Of a stretch of DNA of 40,282 bases, positions 302 through 40,282 are shown piece after piece. The position numbers and the translations under genes were made by a program. Numbering within the stretch: the stretch's first letter is position 1; the number at the start of each line of letters is the position of its first letter. This DNA is from Escherichia phage P1723: sequence record MT465573. One strand, given 5' to 3'. Below the pieces are notes generated by a model. The model saw only the letters and a list, made by a program, of their open reading frames with translations, was not told where the DNA came from and made no database searches.

Positions 302-325
302 TATTAACCCACACTATAAGGAGCC
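302..325 (+). promoter_or_regulatory. Phage RNAP promoter variant (phiOL-like), ATTAACCCACACTATAAGGAG with A at +1
   Basis: Matches the 13-copy phage promoter consensus except TATAAGG instead of TATAGGG; T7 phiOL has the same A-for-G variant at the left end. Confidence 0.5.
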
Positions 326-3723: not shown

Positions 3724-6372
3724 ATGAGCAACGTAATTAATCCGGCAGTGAATGACTTTTCTGATATCAAACACGCTATCGAACCGTTCAACGTATTGGC
3801 AGACCATTACGGCGAACATCTGGCGGCTGTTCAACTTGAGTTAGAGCACGAGGCATACACGGAAGGTGAGAAGCGTTTCCATAAGCAGTTACAGCGTCAG
3901 ATTGAGGCTGGCGAGTTTGCAGATAACGCAGCGGCTAAAGGTGTAGTTCAAACGTTAATCCCTCGGTTGTCTGCTCGTTTCACCGAGTGGCACGAAGAGA
4001 TGCGCGTGAAGAAAGGACGTAAGCACGTAGCGACAAAGACCACAGCGGCAATCAACGCCGACAACTGTGCGGCAATCGTGGTCAAGCAGACACTGGCACA
4101 GGTAGCCAAGCAGGAACTGGCATCAATGCAGAACGTAGCGTTCGCCATAGGTCGTGCAATCGAAGATGAGTTACGCTTCGGTCGTATCCGTGATGAGGAA
4201 GCCAAGTTCTTTAAGAAGTACGTAGAGGACGGGCTCAACAAGCGCAACGGCTTGCTCTACAAAAAGGCTTACATGCAGGTCGTAGAGAAACAGATGATTG
4301 AGCGCAAAGAGCTTAAATCCACGTGGGAGCACTGGACCACCGAGGAGCTGGAGCATACAGGTATCAAGATGCTTGAATTGCTTATTGAGTCTACAGGTCT
4401 CGTTGAGGTCGAGCGCATGAACGCCGGGAACGTTAAGTCAGACGGTCAGTTTGTCTTCTTGGCTGACGAATGGGTCGAGGCTATCAGTAAACGCGCTGGC
4501 GCACTGGCTGCAATCGCACCAATGTATCAACCTTGTGTAGTCCCTCCGAAACCTTGGACGTCCATCGAAGGTGGCGGCTATTGGGCGGCTGGTCGTAAGC
4601 CGATTCAGTTGATTCGTGTAGGCTCTCGTAAGGCTCTCATGCGCTACAACGATGTGTCTATGCCTGAGGTATATGAAGCGGTCAACATCGCTCAGAATAC
4701 AGCGTGGAAGATTAACACGAAGGTTCTGGCGGTCGTCAATCAGGTGGTCAACTGGAAGAACTGTCCGGTGGAGGATATCCCAGCGCTGGAGAGTAAAGAA
4801 CTCCCGGAGAAACCTGAGGATATCGACACGAACGAAGAGGCTCTCAAGAAGTGGAAGAAAGCTGCTGCCGCTGTGTATCGTCAAGACAAGGCACGTGTGT
4901 CTAAGCGCCTGTCCCTTGAGTTCGCTCTCGGTCAGGCCAATAAGTTTGCACAGTTTAAGGCAATCTGGTTCCCGTACAACCTAGACTGGCGAGGTCGAGT
5001 GTATGCTTGCCCGATGTTTAACCCACAGGGTAACGATATGACCAAAGGGCTCCTGACGTTCGCCACGGGTAAACCAATGGGCGACGATGGGATGTACTGG
5101 CTGAAGATTCATGGCGCTAACTGTGCAGGTGTCGATAAGGTTCCATTCCCTGAGCGCATCGACTTCATTGAGAGTCATCACGCAGACATCATGGCTTGCG
5201 CGGATGAACCTTTAGAGAACCTTTGGTGGGCTGAGCAGGATTCACCGTTCTGTTTCCTAGCGTTTTGCTTCGAGTACGCTGGTGCATTTCGTCACGGTAA
5301 GTCCTACGTGTCCTCGCTGCCTCTGGCGTTCGATGGGTCATGCTCTGGTATTCAGCACTTCTCCGCGATGCTTCGTGATGAGGTTGGTGGTCGTGCGGTT
5401 AACTTACTGCCTAGCGAGAAGGTTCAGGATATCTACCGTATCGTCTCCGACAAGGTTAACATCCGTCTTCAGGCTGACGTAATCGGTGGGACTGATAACG
5501 AGATTGAAGTAATCACAAACAAGACCACTGGTGAGATTACCGAGAAGCCTAAGCTGGGTACTCGCGAGCTGGCTGGTCAGTGGCTGGCCTTTGGGGTCAA
5601 CCGTGGGGTCACTAAACGTTCTGTCATGACGCTGGCGTATGGTTCCAAAGAGTATGGATTCCGTGACCAAGTACTGGAGGACACCATCCGCCCAGCTATT
5701 GACAACGGAAAGGGCCTCATGTTTACCCAGCCGAACCAAGCAGCAGGTTACATGGCGAAACTCATCTGGGAAGCTGTAAGTGTCACTGTGGTCGCAGCCG
5801 TAGATGCCATGAAGTGGCTTCAGAGTGCCGCTAAGCTGTTAGCCGCTGAGGTGAAGGATAAGGATGGGACAATCCTGCGAAACCGCTGTGCTGTACATTG
5901 GGTTACTCCTGACGGGTTCCCTGTGTGGCAGGAATACAAGAAGCCAGTCCAGAAGCGTCTCGACCTGATTTTCCTTGGGAAGATTCGCATGGCCCTGACC
6001 ATTAACACAACCAAAGATAGCGGGATTGATGCACACAAACAGGAGTCAGGGATTGCGCCTAACTTCGTGCACAGCATGGATGGTAGCCACCTTCGTCAGA
6101 CGGTCGTCCACGGTCACAATAAGTATGGCATCAAGTCGTTCGCGCTGATTCACGATAGCTTTGGTGCGGTAGCCGCAGACGCTCGCAACCTGTTTAACGC
6201 AGTGCGTGAGACCCTTGTGGAGACCTATGAGCAGCATGACGTAATCCAAGAGTTCTACGACCAGTTTTACGACCAGTTACACGAAAGCCAGCTTGAGAAG
6301 ATGCCAGCGATTCCAGCTAAAGGGTCTCTGAATCTTCAGGAAATCTTAAAGTCTGACTTTGCGTTCGCCTAA
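3724..6372 (+). CDS. 1: Single-subunit DNA-directed RNA polymerase, gene 1
   Basis: 882 aa, near-colinear with T3/T7 RNAP: PMFNPQGNDMTKGLLT, DGSCSGIQHFSAM, HDSFG, C-terminal FAFA; RBS GAGG. Confidence 0.98.
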   Translation: MSNVINPAVNDFSDIKHAIEPFNVLADHYGEHLAAVQLELEHEAYTEGEKRFHKQLQRQIEAGEFADNAAAKGVVQTLIPRLSARFTEWHEEMRVKKGRKHVATKTTAAINADNCAAIVVKQTLAQVAKQELASMQNVAFAIGRAIEDELRFGRIRDEEAKFFKKYVEDGLNKRNGLLYKKAYMQVVEKQMIERKELKSTWEHWTTEELEHTGIKMLELLIESTGLVEVERMNAGNVKSDGQFVFLADEWVEAISKRAGALAAIAPMYQPCVVPPKPWTSIEGGGYWAAGRKPIQLIRVGSRKALMRYNDVSMPEVYEAVNIAQNTAWKINTKVLAVVNQVVNWKNCPVEDIPALESKELPEKPEDIDTNEEALKKWKKAAAAVYRQDKARVSKRLSLEFALGQANKFAQFKAIWFPYNLDWRGRVYACPMFNPQGNDMTKGLLTFATGKPMGDDGMYWLKIHGANCAGVDKVPFPERIDFIESHHADIMACADEPLENLWWAEQDSPFCFLAFCFEYAGAFRHGKSYVSSLPLAFDGSCSGIQHFSAMLRDEVGGRAVNLLPSEKVQDIYRIVSDKVNIRLQADVIGGTDNEIEVITNKTTGEITEKPKLGTRELAGQWLAFGVNRGVTKRSVMTLAYGSKEYGFRDQVLEDTIRPAIDNGKGLMFTQPNQAAGYMAKLIWEAVSVTVVAAVDAMKWLQSAAKLLAAEVKDKDGTILRNRCAVHWVTPDGFPVWQEYKKPVQKRLDLIFLGKIRMALTINTTKDSGIDAHKQESGIAPNFVHSMDGSHLRQTVVHGHNKYGIKSFALIHDSFGAVAADARNLFNAVRETLVETYEQHDVIQEFYDQFYDQLHESQLEKMPAIPAKGSLNLQEILKSDFAFA

Positions 6373-6416: not shown

Positions 6417-6439
6417 CATTAACCCACACTATAGGGAAC
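6417..6439 (+). promoter_or_regulatory. Phage RNAP promoter (phi1.05-like), ATTAACCCACACTATAGGGAAC
   Basis: Exact match to the -16..+1 core consensus; +1 G at 6434. Confidence 0.7.
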
Positions 6440-6815: not shown

Positions 6816-6838
6816 TATTAACCCACACTATAGGGAGA
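6816..6838 (+). promoter_or_regulatory. Phage RNAP promoter (phi1.1-like), ATTAACCCACACTATAGGGAGA
   Basis: Consensus match, +1 G at 6833, directly upstream of gene 1.1. Confidence 0.75.
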
Positions 6839-8397: not shown

Positions 8398-8583
8398 ATG
8401 AAAGTATTACTGTTCATCTTCATGGCCTCTATAGGTCCCGGTAGTTCAAGCCCATCCGTGGAGGCTATCGCTATGCCAAGCATTCAGGCATGTAACTCGG
8501 CAGTGTCACAGCTCAAAGACGCCAAGAAGCCGGGTCGTGGTTATACCGACTACGAGTACGTCTGCGTCGAGACTTCTTATTAA
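8398..8583 (+). CDS. Hypothetical small protein, possible signal peptide (61 aa; 1.4 position)
   Basis: ATG ORF; N-terminus MKVLLFIFMASIGPGSSSP is signal-like; stop overlaps the next phage promoter. Confidence 0.45.
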   Translation: MKVLLFIFMASIGPGSSSPSVEAIAMPSIQACNSAVSQLKDAKKPGRGYTDYEYVCVETSY

Positions 8584-8600
8584 CCCACACTATAGGGAGA
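8578..8600 (+). promoter_or_regulatory. Phage RNAP promoter (phi1.5-like)
   Basis: TTATTAACCCACACTATAGGGAGACC, +1 G at 8595. Confidence 0.75.
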
Positions 8601-9540: not shown

Positions 9541-9719
9541 CCATTGAAAAGGGACGCCTCGTCCCAACCGATAAGAAGTACTTCGTGACGCTAAGTTACG
9601 TTGATGGTGAGCTGGAGGTTCCAGTGTTCGCTGGGTCTCTCGAAGAGGCACACGATTTGGCAACCTTTAAGTATACTCCGGTAGGCTTTGAGGTGCTCCG
9701 AGTTCGTCCAGCAGTCTAA
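9537..9719 (+). CDS. 2: Host RNA polymerase inhibitor, gene 2
   Basis: MTIEKG...YFVTLSYVDGELEVPVFAGSLEEAHDLATFKYTPVGFEVLRVRP matches T7 Gp2; ATG at 9537 with GGAAGGAGAAAGG RBS (tool ORF starts at a TTG at 9519). Confidence 0.85.
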   Translation: MTIEKGRLVPTDKKYFVTLSYVDGELEVPVFAGSLEEAHDLATFKYTPVGFEVLRVRPAV

Positions 9720-9739
9720 TAACCCACACTATAGGGAAC
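9717..9739 (+). promoter_or_regulatory. Phage RNAP promoter (phi2.5-like), variant AATAACCCACACTATAGGGAAC
   Basis: Core CCCACACTATAGGGA conserved; A instead of T at -15; +1 at 9734. Confidence 0.7.
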
Positions 9740-10474: not shown

Positions 10475-10948
10475 ATGACACTCAAGGAGAAACTGGAGGC
10501 TTACTCTAAGGTTTCTCCGTCTGGATGCTGGGAGTGGCAACGCGGAAAGGCTGGTAACGGGTATGGGTCAATCTCTATCGGAAACCAAAAGTCTGCGTAT
10601 GCCCACCGAGTGGCGTACCAAGAGTTTATCGGACAGATACCCGATGGCTACGTGGTACGCCACAAATGTGATAATCCTAGCTGCTGCAACCCAGAGCACC
10701 TCGAAGTGGGGACTCAGGTTGATAACATGCAGGATTGTAAAAGGCGGGGCCGATTGGTTCCACCTCCAGTTCAACGCGGAGAAGCCAACAACAAGACTAA
10801 GCTGACCGGAGACCAAGTGTCTTACGTGTTGTCATCAACCAAGTCCAACCGAGAGTTAGCTCAAGAACTGGGCGTTACGCCACAAGCTATAGGCTGGAGG
10901 AGGAAACATGGCAAACCCATATGCAGGGAGTTACATAACGAAGCCTAA
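10475..10948 (+). CDS. HNH-family endonuclease (gene 2.8 position)
   Basis: 157 aa; AHRVAYQEF...GYVVRHKCDNPSCCNPEHLEVGTQVDN carries the His/Asn/His and Cys ligand pattern of HNH nucleases; overlaps gene 3 by 41 nt. Confidence 0.8.
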   Translation: MTLKEKLEAYSKVSPSGCWEWQRGKAGNGYGSISIGNQKSAYAHRVAYQEFIGQIPDGYVVRHKCDNPSCCNPEHLEVGTQVDNMQDCKRRGRLVPPPVQRGEANNKTKLTGDQVSYVLSSTKSNRELAQELGVTPQAIGWRRKHGKPICRELHNEA

Positions 10949-11357
10949 CGGGTTCCGTTCAGGTCTGGAAGATAAGGTGTCCAAGCAACTCGAATCTAAG
11001 AACGTTAAGTTCGAGTACGAGATGTGGAAGATACCTTATGTAATCCCGGCAAGTAATCATTTATACTGCCCCGACTTTTTGTTACCCAATGGTATCTTTG
11101 TTGAGACCAAGGGTTTATGGGAAGCGGCAGATCGTAAGAAACATCTATTGATTCGCGAGCAATACCCTGAACTGGATATTCGCCTCGTGTTCTCAAGTTC
11201 ACGCACCAAGATTTACAAAGGGTCACCGACCAGTTACGCGGAATTTTGCGAGAAGCACAACATTCAGTTCGCTGACAAGTTGATTCCTGTAAGTTGGCTC
11301 AAGGAGCCTAAGCGTGAAGTACCATTCGACAAGCTCAAGGAGGGCAAAAAGAAATGA
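10908..11357 (+). CDS. 3: Endonuclease I (Holliday junction resolvase), gene 3
   Basis: 149 aa, nearly identical blocks to T7 gp3: FRSGLEDKVSKQLESK, PDFLLPNGIFVETKGLWE, HLLIREQ; GGAGG RBS. Confidence 0.95.
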   Translation: MANPYAGSYITKPNGFRSGLEDKVSKQLESKNVKFEYEMWKIPYVIPASNHLYCPDFLLPNGIFVETKGLWEAADRKKHLLIREQYPELDIRLVFSSSRTKIYKGSPTSYAEFCEKHNIQFADKLIPVSWLKEPKREVPFDKLKEGKKK

Positions 11358-11800
11358 GTGTTCAGTTTAAAACCCGTAGTTCCACGAAGACCCTTATTGT
11401 CCACTGTGCGGCAACTAAGCCAACCATGAATATTGGTCTGCGTGAAATCCGTCAGTGGCATAAAGAGCGTGGCTTTCTGGATGTTGGTTATCACTTCATC
11501 ATTCGACGCGATGGTACTATCGAGACTGGTCGTGACGTTAATCAGGTTGGTGCACATACGGTAGGTCAGAACGACTCATCCGTAGGTATCTGCTTGGTTG
11601 GTGGTGTGGATGATAAGATGCAGCCACAGGCAAACTTTACGCCTCAGCAGATGGCTACCCTGCGTAAACTTCTGGACGAACTGAAAGTTAAGTTCCCCGG
11701 TGTAGCCGTTAAGGGCCACCGTGACTTTGCTGCTAAGGCTTGTCCGAGTTTTGACGTGAAGCGTTGGCTTGACACAAACGAGCTGGTGACGGCTAAGTAA
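11354..11800 (+). CDS. 3.5: Lysozyme / N-acetylmuramoyl-L-alanine amidase (RNAP inhibitor), gene 3.5
   Basis: 148 aa; VHCAATKP..REIRQWHKE.G.LDVGYHFII.RDGT..GRD...GAH...N..S.GICLVGG, KACPSFD matches T7 lysozyme. Confidence 0.95.
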   Translation: MSVQFKTRSSTKTLIVHCAATKPTMNIGLREIRQWHKERGFLDVGYHFIIRRDGTIETGRDVNQVGAHTVGQNDSSVGICLVGGVDDKMQPQANFTPQQMATLRKLLDELKVKFPGVAVKGHRDFAAKACPSFDVKRWLDTNELVTAK

Positions 11801-13722: not shown

Positions 13723-13745
13723 CATTAACCCACACCATAGGGAAC
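13723..13745 (+). promoter_or_regulatory. Phage RNAP promoter (phi4.3-like), variant ATTAACCCACACCATAGGGAAC
   Basis: C instead of T at -4; otherwise consensus; +1 at 13740. Confidence 0.6.
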
Positions 13746-19083: not shown

Positions 19084-19106
19084 TATTAACCCACACTATA
19101 GGGAGA
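19084..19106 (+). promoter_or_regulatory. Phage RNAP promoter (phi6.5-like)
   Basis: TATTAACCCACACTATAGGGAGAG, +1 G at 19101. Confidence 0.8.
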
Positions 19107-21615: not shown

Positions 21616-21638
21616 CATTAACCCACACTATAGGGAGA
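21616..21638 (+). promoter_or_regulatory. Phage RNAP promoter (phi9-like)
   Basis: TGCATTAACCCACACTATAGGGAGACC, +1 at 21633; extended TGCATTAACCC form shared by the late promoters. Confidence 0.8.
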
Positions 21639-22645: not shown

Positions 22646-22668
22646 CATTAACCCACACTATAGGGAGA
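22646..22668 (+). promoter_or_regulatory. Phage RNAP promoter (phi10-like, strong late)
   Basis: TTTGCATTAACCCACACTATAGGGAGACA, +1 at 22663, upstream of the major capsid gene. Confidence 0.85.
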
Positions 22669-27079: not shown

Positions 27080-27102
27080 CATTAACCCACACTATAGGGA
27101 GA
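27080..27102 (+). promoter_or_regulatory. Phage RNAP promoter (phi13-like)
   Basis: GTGCATTAACCCACACTATAGGGAGAGAC, +1 at 27097. Confidence 0.8.
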
Positions 27103-33500: not shown

Positions 33501-34486
33501 ACTACCTGCTTAGCGCTGCACGTCAGGGTCTCATTGGGAACCTTATTGAACACGCTGCGACGGGTAAGTCCTCCAAGTGGCTCAATGAGAACTTCCTGAA
33601 GTCTGCCAGCATCACGCCTGAGCAGTCCAAGGGTATCATTCAGTTCCTCAAAGACCACGCCAAGGTGGACGCTAACGGTAAGTGGACCTTCCCAGACCAA
33701 CACGCGATGAGCCTTGACCCTCGGGCTATGGACTTGTGGCGGATGGCTGATAAGGTTGCAGATGAGACCATGCTCCGACCATCCAAGATTAATGCACAGA
33801 ACGTTAAACAGTTAGGCCCGATTGTTGGCGCTGCGTTGCAGTTCAAAACGTTCGTCATTAAGTCCCTCAATGGTAAGACACTACGTACTTACTATCAGGC
33901 CACTCGCGATGGTCGTGCGATGGACGCTGCATTGTCCACAGGTATCTCCGGGATGCTTGCTGGTTCGTTCTACGTGATGCAGTCCCACATGAAAGCTGCT
34001 GGTCTCCCTGAGAACCAACGTGAGGCTTATCTCTTCAAGGCCTTAACGCCTGAGATGGTTGCCTACGCTGCGGCCTCCCGAAGCTCTATCACTGGTGCGC
34101 CGTTAGGTGTTGCAGATATGCTTCTGGGGCCAATTGGACTGACTCCAAGCCAGTACATGCGTACCACTATCAGTCCTAAGGATGCACCACAGCGAGACCC
34201 TAACAAGGCTTCCTCTGGTCGTTCCGGTACGGCTGAGCTGATGGGTGCTATTGGTCAACAGTTCCCTGTGGCTAACTACGTTGGCTCTACGGTGTCTCTC
34301 GGTCAGAACCTCTGGAACCTCGGAGGTGCCAATGGCCCTCGCGACTCCACGGAGTTCACTACAGGTGTCTATCAGAATATGAAGGAAGTTCTCCCGAACG
34401 ACCCGATTACTCAGAGACTACTTCTGGGTGCTTTCGAAGAGCACATCTACACAACCGAGCGACCTAAGCGTTCAGAGCGCTGGTAA
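30524..34486 (+). CDS. 16: Internal virion protein D with N-terminal lytic transglycosylase domain, gene 16
   Basis: 1320 aa; N-terminus GVSYDLLR...ES.FN..AKS.TGP.G.MQ.T is the transglycosylase motif region of T7 gp16; later segments (FGNPKAI, ILTGRARR, MDLWR.ADKVADE.MLRP) align with T7 gp16. Confidence 0.95.
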   Translation: MAKYDKTIPNQYDGLIRQAADANGVSYDLLRHLTFNESSFNANAKSPTGPKGIMQMTAGTGRAMGLNVFKEDNPADDRYNPEKAIPAAAKLLAGFVKKSNGDELRAALMYNVGEGPTGMPQIEAYDKQDYGSIGDEGRLYIRKLVGSAKSLRSEAIEKFGDFAKGIFEVEAPASKVTRGAPGPETASVNMDTSNLKYDQLNERTAANTWAVQNDQPEENYKPQGADKGLFYKTGDVAKVEVQNSALATMADAALGDNGYDVWSATITPSKWNSYTFTPDDIQKIRESGLRAEYAQSVLGSNAETLDEMIKLAKERQDRQDSVADAGMGAHLVGALAGAAVDPVSYIPIAGAASKGISLGRRMVTVGTQAGALNVASEVLRVGVGGGHADYMMAAGGGLLFGAGLTGVLHRANPREAESVLAATARAESRDAAMRGLPDNSAVSTEGLDFKTSPNGSQYATLDSGEVVLPDGQVLSTSNPLNPNSASQFASVDPEVTKGSMGVRMGSMTDISLHLSRSADDEVRGVAYDLLRSTTGYVKGGSGKSGTVASDVAERLHYTDTSDLTAIEQFTRDAIKDPEWTMGANRGDALARETVVRRAVEAQEDGIGVSKLTKGESKLRDEIFRFTTSKEDAMSNPAMFGNPKAIPVMNKTKLSGKYFPVAYVPEKVAAFRNVFGNSVEDAQGAMQRHFLADYASNPNTKSVVDEMVAAKNGLDSPAAVTPEMVEKWANDKAFGIVNGEFTTNLALDDIASASNSMNLGKNNFLESRHGFSMGFKSQLPDGQMFSLNDLRSFDANKLLRNYARRTNGDIAIHSTGQTTQDLLDKITAIRERAKSDPSGKLKQDANALEDTVKLLTGRARRDPNGAVDMAMGVLKDLSFVAKNAYMGLLNLTEIGGMIAKGNVRALFHGIPVVRDMMRSTKAVSGTDLQKLEYGLMGREVDNMIRPQRADLIQSLRDNSGMGSFGANALGSLKFGTQEIAAAWPMSKLLQGTTNYLLSAARQGLIGNLIEHAATGKSSKWLNENFLKSASITPEQSKGIIQFLKDHAKVDANGKWTFPDQHAMSLDPRAMDLWRMADKVADETMLRPSKINAQNVKQLGPIVGAALQFKTFVIKSLNGKTLRTYYQATRDGRAMDAALSTGISGMLAGSFYVMQSHMKAAGLPENQREAYLFKALTPEMVAYAAASRSSITGAPLGVADMLLGPIGLTPSQYMRTTISPKDAPQRDPNKASSGRSGTAELMGAIGQQFPVANYVGSTVSLGQNLWNLGGANGPRDSTEFTTGVYQNMKEVLPNDPITQRLLLGAFEEHIYTTERPKRSERW

Positions 34487-34487
34487 T

Positions 34488-34510
34488 CATTAACCCACAC
34501 TATAGGGAGA
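34488..34510 (+). promoter_or_regulatory. Phage RNAP promoter (phi17-like), copy 1
   Basis: TCATTAACCCACACTATAGGGAGAGG, +1 at 34505. Confidence 0.8.
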
Positions 34511-34550
34511 GGCAATCACGTCCTCCCTCTAGTTTTCATAAGGAGGCCAC

Positions 34551-34793
34551 ATGGCAAACGTCATTAAGACAGTTTATACGTACCCATTAGATGGCACCAC
34601 GACTGACTTTGCGATTCCCTTTGAGTACCTGTCACGTAAGTTCGTGGTGGTAACGCTCATTGGTCAAGACCGTAAAGAGCTGGTTGTTGTGACCGATTAT
34701 CGCTTCGCTACCCGCAACCTTATCTCTACGACTAAGGCATGGGGACCAGCCGATAACTATCAACAGATTGAGCTACACAACCGAGCGACCTAA
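34551..34793 (+). CDS. Truncated duplicate of the tail fiber N-terminus (gp17 residues 1-74 plus 6 aa), created by the tandem duplication
   Basis: Identical to the first 74 codons of gene 17, then runs through the duplication junction into LHNRAT and a TAA; has its own promoter and AAGGAGG RBS. Confidence 0.6.
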   Translation: MANVIKTVYTYPLDGTTTDFAIPFEYLSRKFVVVTLIGQDRKELVVVTDYRFATRNLISTTKAWGPADNYQQIELHNRAT

Positions 34794-34813
34794 GCGTTCA
34801 GAGCGCTGGTAAT

Positions 34814-34836
34814 CATTAACCCACACTATAGGGAGA
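34814..34836 (+). promoter_or_regulatory. Phage RNAP promoter (phi17-like), copy 2
   Basis: Identical to copy 1; +1 at 34831. Confidence 0.8.
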
Positions 34837-34876
34837 GGCAATCACGTCCTCCCTCTAGTTTTCATAAGGAGGCCAC

Positions 34877-36754
34877 ATGGCAAACGTCATTAAGACAGTT
34901 TATACGTACCCATTAGATGGCACCACGACTGACTTTGCGATTCCCTTTGAGTACCTGTCACGTAAGTTCGTGGTGGTAACGCTCATTGGTCAAGACCGTA
35001 AAGAGCTGGTTGTTGTGACCGATTATCGCTTCGCTACCCGCAACCTTATCTCTACGACTAAGGCATGGGGACCAGCCGATAACTATCAACAGATTGAGAT
35101 TCGTCGATACACTTCTGCAAGTGAACGTCTGGTTGACTTCAGTGATGGTTCCATCCTGCGAGCTACCGACCTTAACGTATCTCAGATTCAGACCCTGCAC
35201 GTTGCTGAAGAAGCGCGAGACCTGACCGCTGATACCATTGGCGTTAACAACGATGGCAACCTTGATGGTCGTGGTCGTCGTATCGTTAACGTGGCAGATG
35301 GTGTGGACGCTGGTGACGTTGTTACCGTAGGCCAGATGAACCGTTGGTCTGGTAGTGCTGCCGACAGCGCCAATAAAGCCAAGGTGTCCGAGACCAACGC
35401 CAAGACCTCTGAGACAAACTCAAAGGCTTCCGAGCTGTTAGCCCAGAAGTGGGCTGAGAACCCTAAAGGAACACCTGTGGTCTCCAGTCAGTATTCCGCT
35501 AAGCATTGGGCGTTGACCTCTGAGGATAGCGCTAATGCGTCTGCAACCTCTGCGGGTAACTCTCAGGCACAAGTAGCGAACGCTAAGACACAGGCTGACC
35601 GTGCTGGTGGTTACGCCAATGACGCTATGGGTTACCGCGATGCAGCCAACACGTCTGCTCAACAGGCCGCTGTATCTGAGGGCAACGCTGCGACATCTGC
35701 AAGTAACGCAAAGACTGAATCCGATAAGCTAATTCAGTTTAACACTCTGGTTGACCGGATTAACGGAGTGGCTGTACGTCAGGTTGGTGAGTTTGAGGTC
35801 CACAACTCTCGTACTTACGCTAAGCCGGGTACAGTGTATGGGGATGGTCAACTGCTGAACCGCAACCAGTTCCCTGCACTAGTAGCTGAGTTACTGGCAG
35901 GACACCTCCCGGTTGTCTCTGACTCCGAATGGCTGGCTGACCCCGGTAAACGTGGTTGCTATACCCTAGGTAACGGTACGACCACTTTCCGTGTACCAGA
36001 CCTCAACGGTGTCTATGCGGGTTCCATTAAGGCTCCTGTGTTCCGTGGTGACGCTGGGTTTACTGTAGGTGATGTTCAGAAGTCAGCTCTACCAAACATT
36101 GAGGGTCTGATTGCACTTGCCGATAATGAGCTGGCCTCCAGTGCCTCTGGTGCATTCTACAACGCTGGGCGCTCCAACAAAGGTGCAACTAACGATACCG
36201 GCGGTGCTCAGTTAGGTTTCGACGCGTCACTGTGGAACGAAATCTACAAGAAGGACACCAACGAAGCCCGAATGAACTCCGTGGTAATCGTATGGGTCAT
36301 CCGTACTCACGGGGTGGTGAACAATCCGGGTTCTGTAGATGCCGCTGTGTTGTCTTCTCGTGTCGAGCAGGTTTATACCGAACTGCTTACACGTATGGTT
36401 GCTAATGAGAACCTCCAGAAGTCTGGACAGAAGTTCCTTCGCCGAGTGTTTAGCGACCGCACGTCTCAGGGGCAACTTTCGACTGGAAGAACAGTGACTT
36501 GCTCTGAGGATATTCTCAACAAGATGCTAGTAATTGGCGCACACACCGATAGCCAAAACCCAAACTCTCAGATATATCGTTGTAGCCCGTTCCTCCAGCC
36601 GAACACTGCTGACCGAATGCACCTCACTCTATCTAACTGGTCGTACACCTTAGAGTTCCCTGCGGCGAATCAAGTTAAACTAGTAGCGGCTACAGGTTCT
36701 GGAGTACAGGCAATCAACTATATTGACGTAGTGTGCGACTACCCACAAACGTAA
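34877..36754 (+). CDS. 17: Tail fiber protein, gene 17 (T7-like N-terminal domain, divergent distal region)
   Basis: 625 aa; residues 1-150 (MANVIKTV..FEYL.RKFVVVTLIG.DRK...DYRFATR...KAWGPAD, GSILRA.DLNV.QIQT.HVAEEARDLT.DTIGVNNDG.LD.RGRRIVN) match T7 gp17; distal part differs and contains a tail-collar-like motif. Confidence 0.95.
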   Translation: MANVIKTVYTYPLDGTTTDFAIPFEYLSRKFVVVTLIGQDRKELVVVTDYRFATRNLISTTKAWGPADNYQQIEIRRYTSASERLVDFSDGSILRATDLNVSQIQTLHVAEEARDLTADTIGVNNDGNLDGRGRRIVNVADGVDAGDVVTVGQMNRWSGSAADSANKAKVSETNAKTSETNSKASELLAQKWAENPKGTPVVSSQYSAKHWALTSEDSANASATSAGNSQAQVANAKTQADRAGGYANDAMGYRDAANTSAQQAAVSEGNAATSASNAKTESDKLIQFNTLVDRINGVAVRQVGEFEVHNSRTYAKPGTVYGDGQLLNRNQFPALVAELLAGHLPVVSDSEWLADPGKRGCYTLGNGTTTFRVPDLNGVYAGSIKAPVFRGDAGFTVGDVQKSALPNIEGLIALADNELASSASGAFYNAGRSNKGATNDTGGAQLGFDASLWNEIYKKDTNEARMNSVVIVWVIRTHGVVNNPGSVDAAVLSSRVEQVYTELLTRMVANENLQKSGQKFLRRVFSDRTSQGQLSTGRTVTCSEDILNKMLVIGAHTDSQNPNSQIYRCSPFLQPNTADRMHLTLSNWSYTLEFPAANQVKLVAATGSGVQAINYIDVVCDYPQT

Positions 36755-39676: not shown

Positions 39677-39699
39677 CATTAACCCACACTATAGGGAGA
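39677..39699 (+). promoter_or_regulatory. Phage RNAP promoter (phiOR-like) near the right end
   Basis: TTTGCATTAACCCACACTATAGGGAGAGGG, +1 at 39694; no substantial ORF downstream. Confidence 0.8.
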
Positions 39700-40092: not shown

Positions 40093-40282
40093 TCTCAAAG
40101 ATACAACTCCCAAAGTTCCCCCATAGCCCTCTTTAAGTTCACCTTCGGTGGCCCTTCCCCTTTGGTTACTCTTTAAGTGACACCTTTGGTGGTTCGTTTG
40201 GTTCTCCTGAGGCGGTGTTGAGACCCTTTGGTGAGACATTAGGGAGACCATTTGGTGACATTTGGTTATGCCTCAGTCCCTA
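40093..40282. repeat. Putative terminal-repeat / genome-end region with CCTTTGGT-type short repeats
   Basis: TCTCAAAGATACAACTCCCAAAGTTCCCCCATAGCCCTCTTTAAG resembles the T3/T7 left-end sequence; CCTTTGGT/CCCTTTAAG repeats continue across the window end into positions 1-80. Confidence 0.35.

What the first reader, a model, noticed from the sequence alone, without database searches (positions are those of the whole stretch)
5956..5994. RNAP specificity loop co-varies with a promoter that is neither T7- nor T3-type
All 13 phage promoters share ATTAACCCACACTATAGGGAGA. Relative to T3 (AATTAACCCTCACTAAAGGGAGA) it differs at -8 (A for T) and -2 (T for A); relative to T7 it is T3-like at -12 to -10. 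The RNAP loop here reads KRLDLIFLGKIRMALTINTTKD: Asp at the T7 N748-equivalent (as in T3), Arg at the R756-equivalent, but Ala at the Q758-equivalent, the residue that contacts the -8 base pair in T7 RNAP. This looks like a matched polymerase/promoter pair with its own specificity.
Basis: partly seen in the sequence, partly recalled or inferred. Interest (0 to 1): 0.6.

Follow-up and report, generated by a model that had tools for sequence, protein, structure and literature searches.

The report
Known N4-type phage polymerase–promoter pair
This is a T7-like E. coli phage, a near-twin of phage SRT7, whose RNA polymerase recognition loop and 13 promoters form a real matched pair, but of a specificity type already described in Vibrio phages N4/ICP3 and already used in synthetic biology.

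Summary
Window 3724..6372 encodes an 882-aa T7-family RNA polymerase. Positions 5956..5994 encode the residues equivalent to T7 R746–Q758, which read R-L-D-L-I-F-L-G-K-I-R-M-A. That gives Asp at 748, Arg at 756 and Ala at 758. Thirteen + strand promoters share (C/T)ATTAACCCACACTATAGGGAGA, against 0 expected by chance, and all 13 have A at -8.

The interpretation, a matched pair that is neither T7-type nor T3-type, is supported, but it is not new. Vibrio phage N4 carries the same promoter from -16 to +6 and the same loop motif D748…R756-M757-A758-L759.

Three published results cover this type:
- Temme 2012 grafted the N4 loop into T7 RNAP to read ACCCA promoters.
- Zhu 2025 lists DRA–ACCCA as a natural class. 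T7 N748D+Q758A is active on ACCCA and more than 200-fold orthogonal within their tested set of four pairs.
- A 2026 paper shows a native N4-like enzyme transcribing TAATTAACCCACACTATAGGGACA with no T7 cross-recognition.

The same loop and promoters are already in RefSeq phage SRT7, which is 96–98% identical to most of the window.

One small point may be new. The A758 / -8A state sits in two unrelated RNAP clades, so it probably arose twice. Interest is low.

The parts
3724..6372 (+). Gene 1: T7-family single-subunit RNA polymerase (882 aa)
   Evidence: It hits Pfam PF00940 (E 4e-107) and PF14700. It is 71% identical to T7, 70% to T3 and 98% to SRT7 RNAP. The best solved structure is T7 RNAP 1cez. 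Catalytic D537/K631/Y639/H811/D812 are conserved.
5935..6030 (+). Specificity loop (equivalent to T7 residues 739-770): YKKPVQKRLDLIFLGKIRMALTINTTKDSGID
   Evidence: It aligns without gaps to T7, T3, N4, VP4, K11, K1F and MA1A.
5956..5994 (+). Base-reading residues R745..A757, equivalent to T7 R746, D748, R756 and A758 (the finding's coordinates)
   Evidence: Codon mapping is. The D-R-A combination is the published DRA class.
4003..4029 (+). AT-rich recognition loop (equivalent to T7 93-101): RVKKGRKHV, T3-like at positions 96 (K) and 98 (R)
   Evidence: This comes from the alignment. It is consistent with the T3-like ATTA at -16..-13 of the promoters.
302..324 (+). Promoter phiOL-like (+1 = 319, A at +1 as in T7 phiOL)
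6417..6439 (+). Promoter just downstream of gene 1 (+1 = 6434)
6816..6838 (+). Promoter upstream of small ORFs and the ligase gene (+1 = 6833)
8578..8600 (+). Promoter after the ligase gene (+1 = 8595)
9717..9739 (+). Promoter phi2.5-like, upstream of the ssDNA-binding protein gene (+1 = 9734; A at -15)
13723..13745 (+). Promoter after the primase/helicase gene (+1 = 13740; C at -4)
19084..19106 (+). Promoter phi6.5-like, after the exonuclease gene (+1 = 19101)
21616..21638 (+). Promoter phi9-like, upstream of the scaffold gene (+1 = 21633)
22646..22668 (+). Promoter phi10-like, upstream of the major capsid gene (+1 = 22663)
27080..27102 (+). Promoter phi13-like (+1 = 27097)
34488..34510 (+). 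Promoter phi17-like, first copy, in front of a truncated 80-aa gp17 N-terminal ORF (+1 = 34505)
34814..34836 (+). Promoter phi17-like, second copy, in front of the full tail-fibre gene (+1 = 34831); produced by the 326-bp tandem duplication
39677..39699 (+). Promoter phiOR-like, after the large terminase gene (+1 = 39694)

Best explanation
The window is the genome of a T7-like coliphage, a near relative of Escherichia phage SRT7 (genus Foetvirus). Its gene-1 RNA polymerase and its 13 class II/III-type promoters form a cognate pair of the known N4/ICP3-type specificity class: D748/R756/A758 with ACCCA at -12..-8.

Inferred mechanism, by homology with the T7 RNAP-promoter complex. The beta-hairpin specificity loop lies in the major groove at -12..-7.
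- R746 reads G:C at -7 and R756 reads G:C at -9, as in T7 and T3.
- Asp748 selects the T3-like CC at -11/-10.
- Gln758 normally hydrogen-bonds the template adenine at -8. Here it is replaced by Ala, flanked by Met757 and Leu759. This fits the inverted A:T pair at -8, probably through loss of the Gln-adenine bonds and a hydrophobic fit to the template thymine methyl.
- The T3-like AT-rich loop (KKGRK) reads the T3-like ATTA upstream.

Shown here: the sequences, their alignment, the genome-wide promoter set, and the cross-phage covariation. Shown by others: the same residues and the same bases are functional and orthogonal in a T7 scaffold, and a native vibriophage enzyme uses this promoter. Inferred: that this particular enzyme discriminates against T3 and T7 promoters, and the atomic details at -8.
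For: - Loop residues and ungapped alignment.
- 13 promoters against 0 expected, with A at -8 in 13/13.
- Vibrio phage N4 has 18 promoters, AATTAACCCACACTATAGGGAGA, identical to the window's from -16 to +6. Its loop is KRIDCVILGTHRMALTINI, with the same D748, R756, M757, A758 and L759.
- In the 88-locus table the residue at 758 tracks the base at -8 without exception.
- Zhu et al. 2025 (PMC11880802): position 758 couples with -8. DRA-ACCCA is a natural class. T7 N748D+Q758A gave log activity 5.29 on ACCCA against 2.69 or less on three other promoters.
- Temme 2012 (PMC3458549): T7 carrying the N4 loop gave 40-fold induction on its promoter and was orthogonal to the T7, T3 and K1F promoters. Zhu's Table 2 quotes an orthogonality of 8 for that set.
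- PMC13029058: a native N4-like vibriophage RNAP uses TAATTAACCCACACTATAGGGACA in vitro. Neither it nor T7 RNAP works on the other's promoter.
- Contacts R756:G-9, Q758:A-8 and R746:G-7 (PMC8874028).
- SRT7 has the identical loop and 12 identical-type promoters.
Against: - No transcription data exist for this enzyme or for SRT7.
- Ala cannot make a base-specific hydrogen bond, so positive selection of A at -8 by A758 alone is not explained. Discrimination may depend on M757/L759 or on indirect readout.
- The published DRA test set did not include ACCCT, the T3 type, which is the only single-base competitor.
- The window loop differs from the N4 loop at 747, 749-751, 754 and 755, so behaviour could differ in detail.
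Confidence: 0.85

Rival explanations
1. Relaxed rather than switched specificity. Ala758 is simply a lost contact, so the polymerase accepts either A or T at -8. The uniform A at -8 in the promoters is then historical (copying or founder effect) rather than selected by the loop.
For: Ala has no hydrogen-bonding side chain. The four-promoter panel of Zhu et al. did not include ACCCT.
Against: - A at -8 is found in 13/13 sites here, 12/12 in SRT7 and 18/18 in N4, with no T variant, while other positions (-17, -15, -4, +1, +5, +6) do vary.
- The N4-loop graft was reported orthogonal to the T3 promoter. In that design the T3 promoter differs from the N4 promoter only at -8 within the swapped -12..-7 region.
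- The sister pair N4/VP4 is 98.9% identical outside the loop, yet it switches A758 to Q758 together with -8 A to T at all promoters.
Confidence: 0.1
2. The R-M-A-L-T-I-N segment was acquired by short-patch recombination from an N4/ICP3-like phage rather than by independent (convergent) substitution. This rival concerns origin only and leaves the function unchanged.
For: A seven-residue identical stretch, RMALTIN, is shared with N4, and 5 of its 7 codons are identical.
Against: - The loop flanks follow each lineage: KRLDLIFLGKI in the window against KRIDCVILGTH in N4.
- The whole 168-nt segment is only 67% identical to N4, against 78-81% to MA1A and T7.
- The hosts differ (E. coli against Vibrio cholerae).
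- The stretch is too short to decide.
Confidence: 0.15
3. The loop differences and the promoter differences are unrelated, and the apparent co-variation is chance.
For: None beyond the small number of independent lineages with A758 (two).
Against: The structural contact Q758:A-8, the DCA coupling between 758 and -8 across T7-like RNAPs, the mutational proof in T7 RNAP, and my exception-free table.
Confidence: 0.02

Closest known systems
Escherichia phage SRT7 (Foetvirus SRT7, NC_048002)
   Same: Its RNAP is 98% identical in amino acids, with an identical specificity loop, and it has 12 promoters of the same sequence at collinear positions. Most of the genome is 96-98% identical in nucleotides.
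   Different: The window has a 326-bp tandem duplication that adds a 13th promoter. It also has a few divergent patches: about 10475-11384, 36385-36746 and 570-730. I found no paper describing SRT7's promoters or loop.
Vibrio phage N4 / ICP3 / JSF group (Chatterjeevirus) RNAP and promoters; the 'N4' loop of Temme et al. 2012
   Same: The promoter is identical from -16 to +6. It shares the same key residues D748, R756, M757, A758, L759 and R746. About 26 such vibriophage records exist. The pair is validated both as a graft and as a native enzyme.
   Different: The RNAP scaffold is only 63% identical, and loop positions 747, 749-751, 754 and 755 differ. It has A at -17 where the window has C/T. 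Its AT-rich loop is different (MKQRGKPHV against RVKKGRKHV). The host is Vibrio.
T7 RNAP N748D+Q758A ('DRA-ACCCA', Zhu et al. 2025)
   Same: It has the same three key residues and the same -12..-8 bases. It was shown to be active and more than 200-fold orthogonal within a set of four pairs.
   Different: It is an engineered double mutant in the T7 background. It keeps T7's L757, P759 and AT-rich loop, and its promoter keeps T7's TAATA upstream.
T3 RNAP / T3 promoter (also Pektosvirus MA1A, the nearest RNAP clade)
   Same: It shares D748, R756, R746 and a KKGRK-type AT-rich loop. Its promoter has ATTAACCC at -16..-9.
   Different: T3 and MA1A have Q758, L757 and P759 with T at -8. T3 also has A at -2.
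Klebsiella phage K11 RNAP / promoter
   Same: The promoter reads ACACTATAGGGAGA from -8 onward, so -8 is also A.
   Different: In K11, -8 A is paired with Lys758 and Asn756/Lys748, and -12..-10 is GGG/GGA. This is a different solution for the same base.

Membership tests
T7-like single-subunit RNA polymerase (Pfam RNA_pol PF00940 + RPOL_N PF14700) | Both Pfam domains score above the gathering cut-off | tested here: met
   PF00940 scores 359 bits (cut-off 22) and PF14700 scores 58 bits (cut-off 30.1).
T7-like single-subunit RNA polymerase (Pfam RNA_pol PF00940 + RPOL_N PF14700) | Catalytic residues D537, K631, Y639, H811 and D812 (T7 numbering) | tested here: met
   All five are conserved in the alignment. 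The full-length match to 1cez_A scores 1431 bits.
T7-like single-subunit RNA polymerase (Pfam RNA_pol PF00940 + RPOL_N PF14700) | Specificity-loop hairpin of T7 length, alignable without gaps | tested here: met
N4/ICP3-type specificity class (DRA-ACCCA of Zhu et al. 2025) | Asp at 748, Arg at 756 and Ala at 758 | tested here: met
   D747/R755/A757 in window numbering.
N4/ICP3-type specificity class (DRA-ACCCA of Zhu et al. 2025) | Cognate promoters with ACCCA at -12..-8 (and C at -7 with R746) | tested here: met
   13/13 sites. They are identical to the N4 promoters from -16 to +6.
N4/ICP3-type specificity class (DRA-ACCCA of Zhu et al. 2025) | The enzyme transcribes ACCCA promoters and not T7/T3-type promoters | not testable with these tools
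   This is shown only for N4-loop grafts, the T7 double mutant and a native vibriophage enzyme.
T3-type RNAP/promoter pair | D748 together with Q758 | tested here: not met
   D748 is present, but position 758 is Ala.
T3-type RNAP/promoter pair | Promoter ACCCT at -12..-8 and A at -2 | tested here: not met
   0/13 sites have T at -8 and 13/13 have T at -2.
T7-type RNAP/promoter pair | N748/R756/Q758 with CGACT at -12..-8 | tested here: not met
   The loop has D748 and A758. No T7-type site is found within 3 mismatches.
Genus Foetvirus (species Foetvirus SRT7) | Collinear genome with high nucleotide identity to SRT7 | tested here: met
   Collinear blastn blocks at 94-98% identity cover almost the whole window, including one 23.4-kb block at 98.2%.

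The most novel reading that the evidence does not exclude
The Foetvirus lineage reached the N4-type solution (M757-A758-L759 with A at -8) independently of the vibriophages, on a T3/T7-like scaffold that is native to E. coli. This would be a natural example of convergent co-evolution of a polymerase loop and a whole genome's promoters. It would also give a ready-made, full-activity enzyme orthogonal to both T7 and T3. N4-loop grafts into split T7 RNAP were poorly active.
Probability: 0.5. Interest if true: 0.3.

Novelty: new member of a known kind. Interest (0 to 1): 0.15.

Why it matters
It matters little for basic biology. The recognition rule (residue 758 reading base -8, residue 748 reading -11/-10) and this exact residue and promoter combination are published and experimentally validated.

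It has modest practical value. It is a natural E. coli-phage polymerase, 71% identical to T7 RNAP, that should read the 'N4-type' promoter. It could therefore serve as an orthogonal expression enzyme without loop grafting.

It has modest evolutionary value. Two unrelated clades show the same Q758A / -8 T-to-A switch, each next to a sister lineage that keeps Q758 / -8 T. This makes a clean natural pair of replicates for studying how a polymerase and all its promoters change together.

Tried and rejected
- A protein search of the 5.8-billion set with the C-terminal 243 aa returned mostly short fragments. Only one, P0001 (an ENA fragment, 98% identical), carries the window-type loop. It was not informative about how widely the DRA combination occurs.
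- The exact 19-mer TTAACCCACACTATAGGGA in IMG/VR is found only in the SRT7 and Vibrio N4 contigs.
- A codon-level comparison of the loop with N4, meant to separate transfer from convergence, was inconclusive because the stretch is too short.
- The supplementary tables of Temme 2012 and Zhu 2025 are not held, and Rong et al. 1998 is not held. I therefore reconstructed the N4 loop and promoter directly from the N4 genome. I could not check which natural phages Zhu et al. placed in the DRA node.
- I looked for extra weak promoters within 5 mismatches on both strands and for T7-, T3- or K11-type sites in the window. None were found.
- No structure prediction was run. The protein is 71% identical to solved T7 RNAP, and a model would not settle the -8 readout.

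Full report
**What is in the window**

The window is a complete, collinear T7-like phage genome. ORF 3724..6372 (+) encodes an 882-aa protein. It hits Pfam RNA_pol and RPOL_N and matches solved T7 RNAP (1cez) over its full length. It is 71% identical to T7 RNAP, 70% to T3 and 98% to Escherichia phage SRT7.

At the nucleotide level the only close record among 50,697 phage genomes is SRT7, genus Foetvirus, at 94.9% over gene 1. A local blastn gives collinear blocks at 94-98% identity over almost the whole genome. IMG/VR also holds only SRT7 as a close relative.

**Checking the observation**

The alignment to T7 and T3 has no gaps through the specificity loop. Mapping columns to codons shows that 5956..5994 is window R745..A757, equivalent to T7 R746..Q758.

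| Phage | Loop sequence |
|---|---|
| Window | KRLDLIFLGKIRMALTINT |
| T7 | TRLNLMFLGQFRLQPTINT |
| T3 | KRLDMIFLGQFRLQPTINT |

So Asp748 (as in T3), Arg756 and Ala758 are confirmed. Lys754, Ile755, Met757 and Leu759 are further differences from both T7 and T3.

The 22-mer ATTAACCCACACTATAGGGAGA has 13 matches at 3 or fewer mismatches, all on the + strand, against 0 expected. Nine are exact. Positions -14..-5 and -3..-1 are invariant, and -8 is A in 13/13. Nothing further appears within 5 mismatches on either strand, and there are no T7-type sites.

The sites lie where T7 promoters lie: phiOL, after gene 1, around the ligase gene, phi2.5, after gene 4, phi6.5, phi9, phi10, phi13, phi17 and phiOR. 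Against T3's annotated promoters the consensus differs at -8, at -2 and also at -17.

One caveat concerns the count. A perfect 326-bp tandem duplication (34447-34772 / 34773-35098) copies the end of gene 16, the phi17 promoter and the first ~65 codons of gene 17. The thirteenth promoter is that duplicate. SRT7 has twelve.

**What it is**

I fetched the genomes of T7, T3, K11, K1F, Pectobacterium phage MA1A, SRT7, Vibrio phage N4 and VP4. From each I extracted the loop and the promoters.

Vibrio phage N4 has 18 promoters with the consensus AATTA ACCCA CACTATA GGGAGA. This is identical to the window's from -16 to +6. Its loop is KRIDCVILGTHRMALTINI, which has the same D748, R756, M757, A758 and L759. 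About 26 Vibrio cholerae phage records (N4, ICP3, the JSF series, Rostov) carry that loop.

I then extended the comparison to 80 IMG/VR loci and tabulated loop against promoter.

| Residue at 758 | Base at -8 | Loop/promoter classes |
|---|---|---|
| Q | T (every case) | RNRQ/CGACT, RDRQ/ACCCT, RNNQ/ACTAT, RNHQ/ACTAT, VDRQ/ACCCT-G |
| A | A | RDRA/ACCCA (window, SRT7, N4) |
| K | A | K11 group |
| F | G | RKNF/GGTAG |

The window therefore belongs to the RDRA/ACCCA class.

**What is published**

- Temme et al. 2012 (PMC3458549) mined 13 loop subfamilies. They grafted the 'N4' loop into T7 RNAP, obtained 40-fold induction on the matching promoter, and reported orthogonality to the T7, T3 and K1F promoters.
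- Zhu et al. 2025 (PMC11880802) list that loop as 747I 748D 749C 750V 751I 754T 755H 757M 758A 759L with promoter ACCCA. Direct-coupling analysis shows that 748, 756 and 758 dominate specificity, with 758 and 757 coupled to -8. They name DRA-ACCCA as one of the natural combinations. T7 N748D+Q758A gave log activity 5.29 on ACCCA against 2.69 or less on three other promoters.
- A 2026 paper (PMC13029058) purified a native RNAP 99.96% identical to that of Vibrio phage JSF35. It used the promoter TAATTAACCCACACTATAGGGACA, and neither it nor T7 RNAP worked on the other's promoter.
- The contacts R746:G-7, R756:G-9 and Q758:A-8 are stated in PMC8874028 and, citing the 1cez structure, in PMC11880802.

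**Mechanism**

Homology to the T7 complex indicates that the loop lies in the major groove at -12..-7.

- R746 and R756 keep reading the G:C pairs at -7 and -9. These bases are unchanged here.
- Asp748 selects the T3-like CC at -11/-10.
- The AT-rich loop has the T3-like K96/R98 pattern, which matches the T3-like ATTA upstream.
- At -8 the T:A pair of T7 and T3 is inverted to A:T, and the Gln that hydrogen-bonds the template adenine is replaced by Ala, flanked by Met and Leu.

That this trio accommodates the template thymine through a hydrophobic fit is my inference and has not been shown. The sequence facts, the covariation, and the published function of the same residues and bases are shown.

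**Origin**

A neighbour-joining tree of the RNAPs with the loop removed places the window with Pektosvirus MA1A (77% identical; Q758, -8 T). It places N4 with VP4 (98.9% identical outside the loop; VP4 has Q758/V746 with ACCCT-G promoters).

So the A758 / -8 A state occurs in two separate clades, each beside a Q758 / -8 T sister. This points to two independent switches. The shared RMALTIN stretch has 5 of 7 identical codons, but the loop flanks follow each lineage. Short-patch transfer cannot be excluded.

**Novelty and verdict**

The pair, however, is a member of a known and experimentally exploited specificity class, and the identical loop and promoters already sit in RefSeq as SRT7. I found no paper that describes SRT7's promoters.

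The most that is new is a second natural lineage for this specificity, on an E. coli-native scaffold. I rate it a new member of a known kind, with low interest.

Noticed in passing
window 34447-35098: There is a perfect 326-bp tandem duplication (300 nt at 100% identity, spacing 326). It covers the 3' end of gene 16, the phi17 promoter and the first ~65 codons of the tail-fibre gene. It creates an 80-aa truncated gp17 N-terminal ORF (34551..34793) and a second promoter copy. SRT7 has a single copy. It could be real or an assembly artefact.
   Followed up: partly
L005 (Vibrio phage N4) and L004 (VP4), RNAP genes and all promoters: The N4 and VP4 RNAPs are 98.9% identical outside the specificity loop, but the loops differ (R746/A758 against V746/Q758). 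All their promoters differ at -8/-7 (ACCCA-C against ACCCT-G). This is a very recent natural whole-genome promoter switch.
   Followed up: partly
L004:36600-36622 (VP4): VP4, whose 18 other promoters are ACCCTGACTATA-type, carries one N4-type site (TAATAACCCACACTATAGGAGG). This is analogous to the unused T7-type promoter annotated in T3. It may be a relic of a promoter switch or of recombination.
   Followed up: no
window 302-324: The leftmost promoter has A at +1 (…CACTATAAGGAGC), the same peculiarity as T7's phiOL (CACTATAAGGAGAGA).
   Followed up: no
window ~570-730, ~10475-11384, ~36385-36746, 40093-40282: These patches do not align to SRT7 or align at only 82-84%: the left early region, the region around gene 3, the C-terminal end of the tail fibre, and the right end. 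The right end, 40093-40282, matches SRT7's left-terminal 176 nt. The window therefore seems to carry the terminal-repeat sequence only once, at its right end.
   Followed up: partly
L012, L013 (IMG/VR contigs 2974652514 and 2974609768): These RNAPs are 76% identical to the window's and are among its nearest relatives. Their loop is RLNLLFLGSFHLQP (N748/H756/Q758) and their promoters are ACTAT-CACTATT. The clade around Foetvirus therefore holds at least three different specificities.
   Followed up: no
NC_048002 and other RefSeq records: RefSeq labels many T7-family gene-1 proteins, including those of SRT7, K1F and BA14, as 'N4-like RNA polymerase'. This is an automated product name and says nothing about the Vibrio phage N4-type specificity discussed here. 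SRT7 also carries a second, overlapping 5'-truncated RNAP CDS annotation.
   Followed up: no
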